Positions 20,816-48,971 of a stretch of 64,000 nucleotides of DNA are shown here, piece by piece. The position numbers and the translations under genes are program-made. Source of the DNA: Eledone cirrhosa (lineage: Eukaryota); assembly GCA_964016885.1 (NCBI GenBank), contig OZ024742.1:178808001-178872000 (forward strand), in the 5' to 3' direction. How positions within the stretch are numbered: position 1 is the first letter of the stretch; each line of letters begins with the position of its first letter. Below the pieces are notes generated by a model. That model saw only the letters and a list, made by a program, of their open reading frames with translations. It did not search any database and was not told the DNA's origin.

Positions 20816-21380
<565 letters not shown>

Positions 21381-31919: not shown

Positions 31920-32075
31920 TGTTTCTACTTTCGGCACAAGGCCAGCAATTACCCAGTGCATTACTGGTACTTTATTTTATCGACCCCGTAAGGATGAAAG
32001 GCAAAGTCAACCTCGGCGGGATTTGAACTCAGATCGTAAAGGGACGTAACTATGCTGGAAAGCATAGTTACGACC
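31918..32075 (-). mobile_element. 5'-truncated SINE whose (ATT)n tail abuts the L1/Tx1
   Basis: Reverse complement of the SINE consensus. Confidence 0.88.
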
Positions 32076-32794: not shown

Positions 32795-33035
32795 AGAAAA
32801 TCCCAGGAAACCCGCGTATAGGAGAAATACAAAAGATAGTACTAATGGGAACTGCCCATATACTAAGGAAGATTCTGTCAATATAAGTACATCACAAGTC
32901 TAAACACCTAAAGATGCATGTGTGAGTATGTATGTTCTTTCTTGAACATGGCGGACCTTGTTGTCTCTTGAGGTCACTGGTTGTGACTTGGTGATAACTC
33001 GTATGAACATAAAGCAAGATAAATGCAGCTGTAAA
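32795..33035 (+). mobile_element. 3' end of a second R4/Dong-like family
   Basis: KIPGNPRIGEIQKIVLMGTAHILRKILSI* plus UTR, between (AAT)n tracts. Confidence 0.7.
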
Positions 33036-33104
<69 letters not shown>

Positions 33105-33106
<2 letters not shown>

Positions 33107-34806
33107 AGAGTTGACATCAACTGGAGTATCCTTGGGAAGCGTGAAGATCAAGAGAGGTATCTTCCAGGGAGATAGCCTGTCCCCTCTGTTGTTTGTCCTT
33201 GCCCTAATGCCCCTGACCATTATGCTGCGAAAAGTGAGAGCAGGATACAAGTTGGGAAGGGGAGAGCTTACCATCAATCACCTCCTCTTCATGGACGATC
33301 TTAAGCTCTTCGGGAAAAGTGAGAAGGAGTTGGATGTGCTTGTTGACACTGTCCGTATTTTCAGCAGTGATATATGTATGCAGTTTGGTATTGGTAAATG
33401 TGGAGTCATTGTGATGAGGAGGGGTAGGTTGAGCAGAAGTAGCGGGATCCAGATACCAACAGGTGAGATGATAAAGGAAATTGACTCTGAGGAAGGATAC
33501 AAGTATTTGGGCGTTCTGGAGGCTGATGGCATAAAGAACAAAAAAATGAAGGAATTGTTAAGAACTGAATACATTCGGAGAGTAAGGAGCGTATTGAAGT
33601 CACATCTGAACAGCAGAAATGCCATAAGCGCAGTAAATTCCCGAGCTGTGTCTATTATTAGGTACAGTGCGGGAATTCTGAGATGGAATGTTGCTGAACA
33701 AAAAGAAATGGATAGGAAGACTAGGAAGCTATTGACTATCTACAACATGTTCCACAAGAGGAGTGATGTCGATAGACTCTACCTAAGGAGATCTGAGGGT
33801 GGAAGAGGTCTTATCAGCATAGAGGACTGTGTTCAGATGGAGAAAAACAACCTATACAAATACGTGACCTATAGTAAGGAGCCAATGCTCAAAACTGTAC
33901 TGAAGGAGGGGACAGTAGGCCAGGGGATGTCCAAGGAGGAAATAACATCAAGGAGGAAGAGCAGCCTTAAGGGAAAATCCCTTCATAGTACCTTCTTTGA
34001 GAAAACTGAATTTAGAGATCCACAGACATGGAACTGGCTGAGAAGAGGAGACCTCAAAAAGGCTACAGAAGGAATGATAATGGCTGCGCAGGAGCAGGCC
34101 CTCAAAACGAAGTGGTTGAAGCACCATATTTACAAGGAGGAGGCTAGCCCACTGTGCAGGATCTGTGGAGAGAGAGAGGAGACTGTGGCTCACATTGTGT
34201 CCGAGTGTAAACACCTAGCCCAGACCCACTATAAGGGCTGGAGACACGATGTGATGGGCAGGGTGATCCACTGGCACCTGTGCAAAGTAAACAATTTACC
34301 ACATTCTGAGAAATGGTATGAGCATAGGCCGGAGGCGGTGATGGAGAACAATCAGGTGAAGGTGCTGTGGGATTTTAGGATACAGACGGACAAAAAACTG
34401 GAACACAATAGACCTGACCTGGTGGTTGTGGACAAGGAAAAAAGATCGTGTCTGATTGTGGATGTGGCCTGCCCGTTCGACACGAGAGTGCAAGAGAAGG
34501 AGAGGGAGAAAATTAACCGATACCAGGACCTAAAGTGGGAGGTGAAAAGGATTTGGAACTGCCATGAAGTCAAAGTGATCCCGATTGTCATAGGCGCACT
34601 GGGGACTATCTCCAAAAGTTTCCAGGGATGGTTAAAGAAAATCGGCCCCTTCACGCTTTTTGGAACGCTTCAAAAGGCATGCTTGCTTGGAACAGCAAGA
34701 ACCCTCCGATACGTCCTGAATATCTGAGGCTGCAGGTAGTGGCTTGATATTCATTCCAACGGACTTTCCAGTTAACCAACATCAATGACTGAGATTCAAG
34801 GAATAA
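33105..34806 (+). mobile_element. 5'-truncated R4/Dong LINE with an uninterrupted RT-CCHC-RLE frame
   Basis: RGIFQGDSLSPLLF, HLLFMDDLK, YKYLG, CRICGEREETVAHIVSEC and PD-(D/E)xK nuclease. Stop at 34727. Inserted in (AAT)n. Confidence 0.95.
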
Positions 34807-35170: not shown

Positions 35171-35248
35171 ATTGTTTCTACTTTTGGCACAAGGCCAGTA
35201 ATTACCCAGTACATTACTGGTATTTTATTTTATCGACACCGTAAGGAT
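35171..35248 (-). mobile_element. SINE 3' fragment fused to the PLE
   Basis: TTGTTTCTACTTTTGGCACAAGGCC...CGTAAGGAT. Confidence 0.85.
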
Positions 35249-36530
35249 TTTTTGATGAGCACGTGAAGTGATTTTTTTACAGCAAAATTTTGTCCTGATT
35301 TAAATGTATACGTGTTACCTTCAATGAGGTGAGTGCAGGTTCCACAATTAGAGCGACCACATTTTTTGACAGTTGGTTGTGGGTTTGTAGTAGGCAATTT
35401 GGCATTGGTGAGTAATGTTTTCAGTGATTTCGGTTGTCTTTTGCTTTTGATTATTTTGTGTGTTTCAAGGACTTTTTTCATTCTTACGTCTTGTTTCAGT
35501 AGAGGGATGTTGTGAATAGTGTTGTAAGCTTCCGCATTTCTTGGGTTGTGTGTTGAGATATATGATAGAATATTGGACGTACCTTGAATTTGTTTCTGTT
35601 TCCGTAATTCATCAATGCCTATTACTTTAGCCCTTTCTATTCCATTATTTATTAGTAATGGTGGGTACTGTCTTTCGTGTAGAATTTACTTTAATTCTTG
35701 AAGTCTTTTATTTCGCGTTTCATAATTGGAGACAATTGTGCAAATTCTTCTTGCTAGGATAAAATGGATGTTCGTCTTCTTGTGCTTTGGATGGTCGGAG
35801 GTGAATAGCATGTATTGTTTGGAATCTGTTGGTTTGTAATGTATGTCAGTTTCAATATTTGTGTCTTTTTTTAAGATTAAGATGTCCAGAAATGGGAGTT
35901 GGTCTGGGCTGTATTCCATTGTGAATTGGATGTGGTTATTGATGCCGTTTATTAAATTTTTGACACCATTCAGTTGGTCGAGTGTGTGGGGCCAAATAAT
36001 GAGACAATCATCCAAATAGCGTTTCCAATTCTCTGATATATTATGATTTGGACTGTTCATAAATCTGGACTTCTAAGTATGCCATGACTAAGTTGGCATA
36101 AGTCAGAGCTGCTTTTGTACCCATCGCAGTCCCCGATATTTGCTTGTAAGTACTGCCATCGAAATCAAAAAAGTTGTTCTGTAAGATAAATTTTAATCCT
36201 TCGGTGATGAAGCTTTTTTCTATTCTGCCAGGTATCTCATTGGGATATTTCTCTAGCCAGAATCCTATTGCTTGTAGTCCGTATTGGTGTGGGATCGTTG
36301 TGTAGAGATTCACTACATCGAAGGACACAATAATAGTATCGTTGTTGACATGTTTGGGGAGGTGGTTTAAGAGGTCCAGATCGTCTTTTACAAGGCTTGG
36401 TATGTGTTTGAGAATTGGTTTTAGTAGTATGTCTATAACGTTGCTCAGTCTGTGTGTTTCACATTGTGGGCGCGCTACAATTGGTCTTAATTTAAGGTCT
36501 GTGGGGTATTGTGTGTTCACGCAGGCTGAA
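35245..36530 (-). mobile_element. Penelope-like element RT plus Cys-rich linker (GIY-YIG domain lost)
   Basis: LRPIVA, SFDVVNLYT, GTAMGT, RYLDD, LPFLDI, YKPTD...HP, then CGRSNCGTC linker. Frameshifted. Confidence 0.92.
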
Positions 36531-36544
36531 GTGGATTGTTTACA

Positions 36545-37080
36545 ATCACGTGACAGTCATAATTTCATTTATAACCAACAAATTGCATTTAAAAAAAAAA
36601 GCCTTCGTAGGCCACTTTTTTTATTGTCATAAAATTCTCTAAAAGGCTACAAAATTAATTCCCAAATACGGGCGCGAAATTTAATGAACTTGTTCACGTG
36701 ACAGTCATTATTTCATTTATAACCAATCAAATTACATTAAAATAAAAAAAGCCTTCGTGAGCCACTTTTTTTATTGTCATAAAATTCTCTAAAAGGCTAC
36801 AAAATAAATTCCCAAATACGGGCGCGAAATTTAATGAACTTGTTCACGTGACATCCAATAATTTCATTTATAACCAATCAAATTACATAAAAAAAAAGCC
36901 TTCGTGAGCCCCTTTTTTAAGTAAAAAGAATTTCAAACACTGATATATGAAAAAAACAACCTGTGCCCCCCCCCCTTGTTTGAAGAACTTTGTAACGAGA
37001 ACTGGCGCGAAATTTATTATACTTATTGACCAACCAATCAAATTACTTCTCTAAAAACCTGGCGTTTCCATATAAAACAA
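36545..37080 (+). promoter_or_regulatory. 149-bp tandem promoter module of a PLE pLTR (E-box, CCAAT, E2F; TATA)
   Basis: CACGTGAC at 36547, 36696 and 36845; AACCAATCA; GGCGCGAAA three times; TATAAAA at 37071. Confidence 0.65.
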
Positions 37081-37139
37081 GTAACATTCAAAGACCAACT
37101 AGATGTGAGAAACACCACAGACCCTCCATCTCAGCTCTA

Positions 37140-37175
37140 CTTTTGAAAAGCAGAAGAACTGCGAAACCGGTAAAG
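37140..37175 (+). ncRNA. Minimal type I hammerhead, U3-A8 variant (family C)
   Basis: CTT-TTGAAAA-GCAG-AAGAA-CTGC-GAAAC-CG-GTA-AAG; AATAAA downstream; stem I is only about 3 bp. Confidence 0.7.
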
Positions 37176-37237
37176 GAACCAAATAAATATATATATATTT
37201 TTTAAAAATAAGACTCCAGTTGCATTTTCGATTTCAT

Positions 37238-37320
<83 letters not shown>

Positions 37321-37323
<3 letters not shown>

Positions 37324-37661
37324 CGAAGGAAATGTGGTAAGGAACCAGGTGGACCATAACGCACCAAAGTACTCAATACTTAGGGTAGTAGAGTGGGTAA
37401 TAGGAACAAGTTAGACCCCCTACTTCTCCTACCGGCAGGTTTAGCTACCCGTTCCTCCACCAATTTGCCATCACAGATTTACTACTAACTTGTGATGTGA
37501 CCAATGCTGGTGATTACCTCTTTGACCATATATGGAATTACCCCTTGATAAGCTCGGCTATTTAAATACCAGAATAAATTTTCATTCAGTCCAGAATTAG
37601 CCGTCGAAACGGCTTGAGCTCAGCCGTCTTTTAAAAAATTAAAATTGGGGTCTTACTTGTT

Positions 37662-37727: not shown

Positions 37728-38240
37728 ATTAAGTTAAAAATGTACATCCACATATGTATACTGAAATACTAGTATGCATATGAATACACACACGTGTACA
37801 TATGTAGATGTACCGAGTTTTTCACTGGTCACTTTACTGTGAGTGTCCAGCTATTCTGTATGTAAACACACAGACAAACCGGTTTTTAGAGTCATACTGG
37901 TTTTTGAGGAAACACCTTTCCTCTATTCTCCAGAAAGCCAGACAAGGAATATTGGACTAGTTTCGATGTTGTTACATCTCATCAGCAATATTTACCTATC
38001 TTCTGGCCTTTCTAGAGAATCGTAAAAGCACATATCGTTATATGCTTTTTCTATGAAAATTAGTAGTGGGCAGACTAATTTGCATAGAGCATGAGTACGT
38101 ACCGGTTCAACGGAGACGATAAAAACAAATAACGAAACGAAATTAAATTTCGTTTCGTTTGTAACTCACTTTTGTATGACTGACGCTTAAACAATTAAGT
38201 TAAAAATGTACATCCACATATGTATACTGAAATACTAGTA

Positions 38241-38288: not shown

Positions 38289-38291
<3 letters not shown>

Positions 38292-38483
38292 CGAAGGAGA
38301 TGTGGTAAGGAACCAAGTGGACCATAACGCAGTACTCAATACTTAGGGTAGTAGAGTGGGTAATAGGAACGAGTAAGACCCCGACGGCTGAGCTCAAGCC
38401 GTTTCGACGGCTAATTCTGGACGGCTAGTTCCAGAATTAGCCGTCGAAACGGCTTGAGCTCAGCCGTCGGGGTCTTACTCGTT

Positions 38484-48627: not shown

Positions 48628-48966
48628 TAGAAACTGAGGTTTCTTTTACAAAATGAAAAATAAACGAGGTGTTCTACACGAGTGAAAGTGTAAAGAAAAA
48701 AGATGAAATCGAAAATGAAACTGGAATCTTTAAAAAAAAAAAAATATTTATTCGGTTCCTTTACCGGTTTCGAAGTTCTTGTGCTTTTCAAAAGTAGAAT
48801 TGAGATGGAGGGTTTGTGGTTTTTCTCACATCTGATGAGAAAAACGACAAACCCTCCATCTCAATTCTACTTTTGAAAAGCGCAAGAACTGCGAAATCGG
48901 TAAAGGAACCAAATAAATATATTAAAAAAAAAACACTCCAGTTGCATTTTCGATTTCATCTTTTTT

Positions 48967-48971
<5 letters not shown>
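48628..48971 (-). mobile_element. Family C fold-back element with a U3-A8 hammerhead in each arm (48759-48794 minus, 48870-48905 plus)
   Basis: Arms 48691-48829/48836-48971, homologous to 37101-37240. Confidence 0.88.

What the first reader, a model, noticed from the sequence alone, without database searches (positions are those of the whole stretch)
35245..37240. A PLE RT body is joined to an inverted pLTR, identifying the likely autonomous parent of the U3-A8 family C
Seen: the minus-strand PLE RT is 5'-truncated at about 36530 and directly abuts a plus-strand block (promoter repeats, TATA, U3-A8 hammerhead, AATAAA) that ends in (TA)n close to where the short arm of the 48628-48971 hairpin ends. 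Established: PLE copies often have an inverted 5' pLTR. Inference: the coding-free hairpins are extreme 5' truncations produced by this RT.
Basis: partly seen in the sequence, partly recalled or inferred. Interest (0 to 1): 0.75.

Follow-up and report, generated by a model that had tools for sequence, protein, structure and literature searches.

The report
Dead Penelope copy explains hairpin stubs
This is a broken copy of a known kind of jumping gene joined to its own flipped end repeat, and its family's many small DNA hairpins turn at one fixed spot 30 bases behind a TATA box, likely because both cut DNA strands copy the same RNA leader and run off its start.

Summary
In 20 of 20 genomic copies examined, the 36546-37241 block lies in sense behind the GIY-YIG domain, so here it is an inverted pLTR. 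The family is a Neptune-type Penelope-like element (PLE) by motifs; no tree was possible. This copy is not autonomous: it is cut at both ends, lacks the endonuclease and is frameshifted. Ten other copies have intact frames. The hairpins are this family's, but they are not random extreme truncations. Of 100 arms sampled by position, 41 start within 6 bases at TATA+30. At least 1,409 hairpins turn there, against 30 at the hammerhead cut. Each inverted insertion has one short end and one tailed end (43 of 43). An arm stopping at TATA+30 was never paired with one passing it (0 of 46; about 12 expected). Likely mechanism: both target strands prime on one pLTR copy, and the copies run off the RNA start. 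Intact copies have two frames overlapping at a phased U-UUU-UUA, a predicted -1 frameshift. U3-A8 hammerheads and inverted pLTRs are published. This scan noted the run-off hairpins and the frameshift before, on other DNA. No RNA data.

The parts
35173..35248 (+). 5' half of a SINE-like repeat fused to the cut 3' end of the PLE body (not part of the element); 2-3 shared bases at the joint suggest a later deletion
   Evidence: compared with the whole copy at about 31920-32060
35249..36544 (-). PLE body fragment: RT core, thumb and CX4CxxC linker, ending just before GIY-YIG; two frameshifts and one nonsense codon; aa 235-675 of the family RT-EN protein
36546..37241 (+). Inverted pLTR, 5'-truncated inside the promoter repeats, ending at the short end (end 1)
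36546..36918 (+). About 150-base promoter-region repeats (92% alike) holding CACGTG, CCAAT and GGCGCGAAA motifs (labels E-box, CCAAT box and E2F-like are recalled; function untested)
37071..37077 (+). TATA box (TATAAAA), 30 bases before the family's fixed 5' boundary
37101..37101 (+). Predicted transcription start (+1); the hairpin apex and the start of solo stubs
   Evidence: inferred, no RNA data
37140..37175 (+). Minimal type I hammerhead, U3-A8 core, palindromic helix III; predicted cut after 37172 (+72)
   Evidence: variant described in PMC4209133
37182..37187 (+). AATAAA hexamer, no role shown
37242..37322 (.). (TA)n target microsatellite
48628..48971 (.). Head-to-head hairpin of an older subfamily of the same family: minus arm +1 to end 2 (with the about 65-base tail), plus arm +6 to end 1
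20820..21244 (.). Hairpin of a sister PLE family (RT-EN 55-57% identical): U3-A8 core, apex 32 bases behind a CATAAAA box, one short end and one tailed end

Best explanation
This is a dead, doubly truncated insertion of an abundant Neptune-type Penelope-like retrotransposon joined head to head to its own inverted pLTR, and the family's coding-free hairpins are likely the short product of the same reaction, in which both cut target strands likely prime on one pLTR copy and run off a predicted transcription start. SHOWN: the element order is TATA, +1, hammerhead (+40 to +75), end 1 (about +150), tail, end 2 (about +217), ORF1 of 400 aa, RT-GIY-YIG in the -1 frame, 3' region, promoter repeats, pLTR again. 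Insertions sit in (TA)n. Inverted insertions have one arm ending at end 1 and one at end 2. Arm starts pile up at +1. Arms of a pair are either both at or inside +1, or both past it, with rare pass/inside cases and no pass/+1 case. INFERRED: the endonuclease cuts both strands in (TA)n; the two 3' ends prime at end 1 and end 2, both of which finish in ATA and could pair with the target; the two cDNAs are joined at their 3' ends over 0-2 shared bases. On the uncut 5' leader both cDNAs would run off at +1, giving the roughly 360-base hairpin, or a solo stub if only one is kept. On the downstream pLTR they would stop at scattered points, giving a body plus inverted pLTR as in this window. A later deletion likely removed this copy's endonuclease and tailed end. 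RT-EN is predicted to be made by a -1 ribosomal frameshift.
For: pLTR position: 28 of 29 and 20 of 20 loci. Fixed boundary: 41 of the first 100 exact hammerhead matches on C1 start at -1 to +4, against 9 in the 68 positions upstream; 15 of the 41 have no inverted partner (17 by the script, less L178 and L181, which one search shows inverted). The boundary is 30 bases behind TATAAAA. A sister-family hairpin turns 32 bases behind CATAAAA, at the same YCAGAT context (one hairpin). Apex counts: 1,409 at +1 against 30 around the hammerhead cut. Ends: one short plus one tailed in 43 of 43 junctions with both ends seen (p 2e-14). Pair classes among 46 junctions: +1/+1 14, pass/pass 14, inside/inside 8, +1/inside 8, pass/inside 2, +1/pass 0, with 11.7 expected. 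The longer arm is the short-ended one 13 times and the tailed one 12 times. The commonest apex occurs in both orientations to the tail, 154 and 117. Arms of one hairpin agree at subfamily sites in 358 of 378 cells (231 expected) and share 5 rare variants (0.16 expected). In print: a PLE protein cuts and extends both strands, starts at two internal sites that bound the tail, and does not need hammerhead cleavage (PMC11167929).
Against: No RNA evidence was obtained for the start site, for hammerhead cleavage or for the frameshift. 0 of 30 ORF-bearing copies begin at +1 (18 pass it, 12 start inside), which a simple linear +1 transcript does not predict, so the long template must be tandem, circular or reached by a jump. 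Two cDNAs copying overlapping RNA need strand displacement or two RNAs; neither was tested. Shared rare variants were seen only in close hairpins (5 in 60 pairs; 0 in 16 distant pairs), so gene conversion could explain them, and subfamily agreement could reflect subfamilies active at different times. The sample of 100 needed an intact hammerhead and came from the first 37 Mb of one contig. A splice between a donor-like site at ORF1 nt 722 and an acceptor-like site just before the slippery run could also join the frames (donor scan; acceptor read by eye). The hairpin behind the slippery site is weak (-7.8 kcal/mol).
Confidence: 0.7

Rival explanations
1. One reading: the hairpins are the short end of a continuum of random 5' truncations made by this RT, with no special boundary.
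For: A continuum exists: 16 of 100 arms start at +5 to +41 and 41 pass upstream; inside/inside pairs are 8 of 46.
Against: 41 of 100 arms start in 6 positions (p 2e-36 against the upstream rate), and there are no +1/pass pairs.
Confidence: 0.08
2. One cDNA folds back and copies itself, or an antisense RNA self-primes, as proposed in print for palindromic PLE junctions.
For: Arms are more alike within (3.1% apart) than between hairpins (5.6%) and share 5 rare variants. Self-priming on an antisense template is proposed in PMC3846280 (passages).
Against: Fold-back needs the tailed arm to be the donor and so never the shorter one, but the short-ended arm is longer in 13 of 25 asymmetric pairs, some by kilobases. 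The commonest apex has a one-base loop, in both orientations. Solo stubs start at the same boundary. An antisense RNA has no evident reason to end at TATA+30.
Confidence: 0.12
3. The hairpins are a separate non-autonomous family (MITE-like or retrozyme-like) that amplifies as a unit.
For: At least 1,409 copies share the apex region; the 40 scored hits to the 48628 hairpin all have the same size and layout (biased by the query).
Against: The apex varies (21, 11 and 6 of the first 50 in three forms, 12 others). The tail sits on either arm (154 and 117). The main pLTR haplotypes appear in both hairpins and promoter-linked pLTRs. Apices avoid the hammerhead cut. Hairpins lack the promoter.
Confidence: 0.05
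4. The +1 boundary is an RT pause, a splice acceptor or a processing site rather than the transcription start.
For: The boundary reads CAG, like a 3' splice site, and no RNA was available to map the cap.
Against: A probabilistic pause should give +1/pass pairs, and none was found. No common upstream exon or leader precedes the boundary. TATA spacing is 30 and 32 in two families.
Confidence: 0.05

Closest known systems
Neptune clade of endonuclease-bearing PLEs (PMC8557442; passages, section 12 and supplement part 54 seen)
   Same: C-terminal GIY-YIG with CCHH; long CX2-5CxxC linker; GxKF and DKG motifs; (TA)n targets; partial tandems; RT3-4 and linker text most like the Neptune rows of Figs S1-S2, by eye.
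   Different: Described as a single ORF; here ORF1 and RT-EN overlap out of frame at a phased U-UUU-UUA. A killifish Neptune with two ORFs is in print; the word frameshift was not found in that paper (PMC12602865, passages).
Canonical PLE insertion unit: inverted 5'-truncated pLTR with a one-sided tail (PMC3846280, PMC8557442; passages)
   Same: Head-to-head inverted copy, tail on one end only, palindromic junctions.
   Different: The tail is about 65 bases, not 30-40. The passages seen do not report a pile-up at the start site, strict short/tailed pairing or the absence of mixed pairs; PMC3846280 favours antisense self-priming.
Poseidon_Ac in vitro reaction (PMC11167929; parts 1-2 of 4 read)
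   Same: Two internal RT start sites bounding the tail; both strands cut and extended; AT-rich target; hammerhead cleavage dispensable.
   Different: Different clade; its start sites lie inside the ORF in an AC-rich stem-loop, here in the 5' leader with no stable fold found. That paper does not explain inverted hairpins.
Minimal PLE hammerheads, including the U3-A8 variant (PMC4209133; parts 1-2 of 4 read)
   Same: Type I, short helix I, palindromic helix III, U3-A8 covariation, opposite-strand pairs 100-700 bases apart.
   Different: Reported there for Schistosoma; this family has a shorter helix II (4 bp). Activity was not tested here.
Non-LTR retrozymes (bioRxiv 10.64898/2026.07.22.740005; part 1 of 5 read)
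   Same: Non-coding, hammerhead-bearing, derived from PLE pLTRs.
   Different: Retrozymes are head-to-tail tandem units; these stubs are head-to-head pairs or solos bounded by +1 and the two priming ends.

Membership tests
EN+ Penelope-like element | PLE-type RT with C-terminal GIY-YIG | tested here: met
   Pfam RVT_1 and GIY-YIG on full copies; the window copy lacks GIY-YIG
EN+ Penelope-like element | CCHH motif with two Cys inside GIY-YIG | tested here: met
   read in P0001 and P0003; definition
EN+ Penelope-like element | pLTRs in partial tandem or inverted position, one-sided tail | tested here: met
EN+ Penelope-like element | Hammerhead in the pLTR | tested here: met
   motif present; cleavage not tested
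EN+ Penelope-like element | Single ORF encoding RT and EN | tested here: not met
   RT and EN share one frame, but a 400-aa ORF1 lies out of frame before it: 20 of 30 copies stop at codon 400, 10 stop earlier, none later. This feature fails as worded in PMC8557442; a two-ORF Neptune is in print, so the family is filed as a variant.
Neptune clade | CX2-5CxxC linker between RT and EN, long form (short in Nematis) | tested here: met
   compared by eye with Fig. S2 rows
Neptune clade | Placement in an RT phylogeny with named references | not testable with these tools
   no named PLE reference proteins were available to the tools; the 120 listed homologues carry no clade names
Hydra clade | CCHH absent, CxCX5C linker, DKT, no GxKF | tested here: not met
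   CCHH, CX4CxxC, DKG and GLKF are all present
Naiad/Chlamys | N-terminal EN | tested here: not met
   EN is C-terminal
Autonomous element (this copy) | Intact RT and EN frames with flanking pLTRs | tested here: not met
   cut at both ends, EN missing, frameshifts and a stop; 10 of 20 fetched copies elsewhere have both frames intact
Non-LTR retrozyme (hairpins) | Head-to-tail tandem units, each with a hammerhead | tested here: not met
   head-to-head pairs or solos; boundary at +1, not at the cut
MITE (hairpins) | Amplifies as a unit with fixed terminal inverted repeats | tested here: not met
   variable apex, tail on either arm, pLTR subfamily haplotypes
-1 programmed frameshift signal | X XXY YYZ heptamer in phase, in the overlap of the two frames (definition recalled) | tested here: met
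   19 of 20 fetched copies; 5 of 20 sister-family loci, being all that keep the region
-1 programmed frameshift signal | Stimulatory structure 5-9 bases downstream (definition recalled) | tested here: inconclusive
   a hairpin starts 7 bases downstream but is weak, and no convincing pseudoknot was found
-1 programmed frameshift signal | Measured frameshifting | not testable with these tools
   needs a reporter or ribosome profiling

The most novel reading that the evidence does not exclude
The genome records two template classes for one Neptune-type enzyme. An uncut, capped leader is twin-primed at two fixed sites and gives the run-off hairpins. A separate circular or multimeric RNA, possibly closed at the hammerhead, has no 5' end at +1 and gives every long copy. 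That would explain why no ORF-bearing copy starts at +1 (0 of 30) and why +1 and read-through arms never pair (0 of 46). The enzyme itself would be a minor ORF1-RT-EN fusion made by an HIV-type -1 frameshift.
Probability: 0.35. Interest if true: 0.72.

Novelty: new variant of a known kind. Interest (0 to 1): 0.5.

Why it matters
How PLEs, the sister group of telomerase, form inverted pLTRs and one-sided tails is called an open question in PMC8557442 and PMC11167929. This family gives countable genomic rules that any mechanism must meet: one short and one tailed end, a hard stop at TATA+30, no mixed pairs, and no long copy starting at +1. It names the substrates for a direct in vitro test: the +1 to +217 leader, a (TA)n target and intact natural ORFs. 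It also shows that hairpin or hammerhead mini-elements in such genomes can be dead-end insertion products rather than separate MITE or retrozyme families.

Tried and rejected
Directional apex model (the tailed arm always complete, jumping onto the short arm): suggested by the 30 loci, but that was query bias; genome counts are 154 and 117 (p 0.03). Hammerhead-cut RNA as hairpin template: 30 apices against 1,409. Hydra clade and twin bulged hairpins behind the two ends (leads from earlier notes): Hydra motifs are not met, and no stable fold was found behind either end (z 0.37, -0.48, 0.35). A single long ORF: none of 20 fetched copies has one. RNA evidence: no RNA holder listed. Three contig runs of unknown kind from one study were laid; they show loose ends at about +2, end 1 and end 2, but may be the assembly's own sample and cannot show starts. 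Phylogeny among named clades: not run, for lack of named references. Whole-window repeat search was swamped by microsatellites. Rfam gave mostly miRNA look-alikes. ORF1 has no Pfam match. Long-arm comparison of distant pairs was uninformative: the partner was the best match in only 3 of 16. Rows dropped before counts: 4 of 80 pairs (L176, a sister family; L168 second and L195 first, not one insertion; L061, apex in an internal repeat), both L176 junctions of 48 (one sister-family, one pass/inside).

Full report
1. Observation. The minus strand of 35249-36544 encodes aa 235-675 of a PLE RT-EN protein at 90-95% identity, in three pieces split by two frameshifts, with one nonsense codon. It ends after the CX4CxxC linker, just before GIY-YIG, where it is fused to the 5' half of a SINE-like repeat over 2-3 shared bases. 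That points to a later deletion (inference). At the 5' cut (36544) one extra base is followed by the plus-strand block 36546-37241. The block holds promoter repeats (92% alike), TATAAAA at 37071, a minimal hammerhead with U3-A8 core at 37140-37175, AATAAA at 37182 and then (TA)n. A 34-base hammerhead stretch has 10,850 exact matches in the 3.0-Gb genome G000 and 0 for the control.

2. In 28 of 29 other loci found with the RT, the block lies in the same sense about 0.9 kb downstream. In 20 of 20 ten-kb loci (picked from the 43 matches) the order is RT, endonuclease, 3' region, block. The frame there matches Pfam RVT_1 and GIY-YIG. So the block is the pLTR and is inverted in the window. Five of those 20 loci (L064, L065, L068, L072, L076) have an inverted 5' pLTR of their own. 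The window copy is not autonomous. It is 92-93% identical to ten copies with intact frames.

3. Clade. The protein has a C-terminal EN with CCHH, a long CX4CxxC linker, GLKF and DKG. By the definitions in PMC8557442 (passages and section 12) this excludes Penelope/Poseidon, Hydra and Naiad. By eye, the RT and linker resemble the Neptune rows of its Figs S1-S2 more than the Nematis rows (supplement part 54 of 59). No tree was built: the 120 listed of 689 homologues carry no clade names. 'Neptune-type' is therefore a motif call.

4. Map of the element, with +1 the A 30 bases after the first T of TATA: hammerhead cut predicted after +72; end 1 at about +150; tail; end 2 at about +217; ATG about 27 bases later. 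Both ends finish in ATA and run into (TA)n.

5. Hairpins. All 30 loci fetched with the 48628 hairpin have one arm to end 1, one to end 2, and an apex at about +1 to +9 (biased by the query). For a sample independent of upstream structure I took the first 100 exact hammerhead matches on C1. Arm starts: 41 at -1 to +4, 16 at +5 to +41, 9 in the next 68 positions upstream (2 of them repeats of the +1 start), and 34 further up (p 2e-36). Fifteen of the 41 are solo stubs, mostly abutting TA repeats (after removing two that one search shows inverted). Genome-wide, 1,409 apices have both arms intact to about +4, against 30 around the hammerhead cut. Among the first 50 listed, three joints dominate (21, 11 and 6) and 12 differ (read by eye). 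The commonest joint has the tail on either side, 154 and 117; one of these loci has tails on both arms.

6. Pairing rules. Of 48 head-to-head junctions in that sample I dropped the two of L176. Of the 46 left, all 43 with both ends visible have one short and one tailed end. Both arms stop at +1 in 14, both pass it in 14, both start inside in 8, +1/inside in 8, pass/inside in 2, and +1/pass in 0, where 11.7 are expected. The longer arm is short-ended 13 times and tailed 12 times. In 60 close pairs (pooled from all searches), arms differ by 3.1% within and 5.6% between, agree at subfamily sites in 358 of 378 cells (231 expected), and share 5 rare variants (0.16 expected) against 142 unshared. 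In 16 distant pairs, 90 of 99 cells agree (67 expected) and no rare variant is shared. Differing arms and differing ends argue against an assembly fold-back artefact.

7. Parentage. The window's pLTR haplotype is the commonest in hairpin arms (31 of 101 in the listed classes) and in promoter-linked arms of RT loci (14 of 23). The 48628 hairpin is an older variant: 85-87% identical to the block, and up to 93% to promoter-linked pLTRs found by an older-variant pattern (195 matches). Two of the 20 such loci fetched show the endonuclease in sense upstream. The family made the hairpins over several subfamilies; this copy did not.

8. Mechanism. Shown are the anatomy and counts above. From print: a PLE protein cuts and extends both strands, starts at two internal sites bounding the tail, and does not need hammerhead cleavage (PMC11167929, parts 1-2 of 4). 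Inferred: both target strands prime, one at each end, on the same pLTR copy, and the cDNAs are joined 3' to 3'. On the leader they run off at +1; on the downstream pLTR they stop at scattered points. The absence of +1/pass pairs argues against a pause at +1 and against one arm coming from each pLTR. The even split of the longer arm argues against fold-back of one cDNA and against the antisense self-priming proposed in PMC3846280 (passages). One RNA with strand displacement and two RNAs of one class are not distinguished. Unexplained: 0 of 30 ORF-bearing copies begin at +1 (18 pass, 12 start inside), so the long template seems to have no 5' end there.

9. Two reading frames. Of 30 copies, 20 stop at codon 400 of ORF1, 10 stop earlier and none later. 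I fetched those 20: 19 have T TTT TTA in phase 20 codons before the stop, and 10 have the -1 frame open from there to the end of the endonuclease, 764-768 aa. The first Met of that frame lies behind the DKG motif. A sister family, 55-57% identical, has the same heptamer in phase, 10 codons before its stop, in the 5 of 20 loci that keep the region. None of the 120 listed homologues exceeds 803 aa although up to 1,344 aa was searched (weak, since gene callers made those entries). The downstream hairpin is weak, and a splice is a possible alternative. 'HIV-type' is a recalled label.

10. Replicate. The 20820-21244 hairpin matches the sister family's pLTR, which lies in sense behind its EN in 8 of 8 loci at 97-99.5%. 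Its apex is 32 bases behind CATAAAA, with one short and one tailed end.

11. What is known. Inverted pLTRs, one-sided tails and (TA)n targets are in PMC8557442 and PMC3846280. U3-A8 minimal hammerheads and opposite-strand pairs are in PMC4209133 (parts 1-2 of 4). Retrozymes as pLTR derivatives are in bioRxiv 10.64898/2026.07.22.740005 (part 1 of 5; supplements closed). A two-ORF Neptune is in PMC12602865 (passages). PMC13282606 gave no hairpin or hammerhead passage. I found no paper on start-site run-off hairpins or on a frameshift in EN+ PLEs in the searches (listings only; subscription papers and Repbase were not searched, and unread supplements may bear on this). Earlier notes of this scan report both ideas on other DNA; none was returned for this place or sequence. 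I reached both readings before seeing the matching notes (notebook), and they are not independent support.

12. Verdict. Observation confirmed; interpretation partly supported; a new variant of a known kind; interest 0.5.

Noticed in passing
window 20820-21244: Hairpin of a sister Neptune-type family with a U3-A8 core (GAAA read as GCAA in this copy); very young family (99% identity among 40 RT hits).
   Followed up: yes
L228-L247 (e.g. L231:669-4105); L251, L253: Two overlapping frames with a phased U-UUU-UUA; the ORF1 stop is 20 codons after it in this family and 10 in the sister family.
   Followed up: partly
L193 about 2400-2440: The sister family's promoter, up to its TATA-like box, is joined to this family's arm at +2: a possible template jump between families.
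   Followed up: no
L159, L166, L134 (apex regions): Short repeats of the first 10-20 leader bases at the 5' boundary, as if RT re-jumped at the RNA end.
   Followed up: no
L270-L286: The older subfamily has 2 more bases between TATA and +1 (32 instead of 30): a natural test of whether the boundary follows TATA or the initiator.
   Followed up: no
window 32946-34727 (+), partial repeats to 35170: Non-LTR retrotransposon RT with zf-RVT and a restriction-like endonuclease motif, ending in (TAA)n, with a short duplicated 3' end; R4/Dong-like is a recalled label.
   Followed up: no
window 13944, 16755, 18677, 20359, 37952, 39184: Six further minimal hammerhead motifs of other families, five C3-G8 and one U3-A8; 37932-38003 also scores weakly with Rfam HH9.
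   Followed up: no
solo stubs in L132-L194: Solo stubs starting at +1 mostly carry the tail (12 of 15), against 60 of 100 arms overall.
   Followed up: no
window 37325-37660 and 38290-38480: A frequent repeat that sits in (TA)n, here with inverted pieces, also flanks many fetched loci.
   Followed up: no
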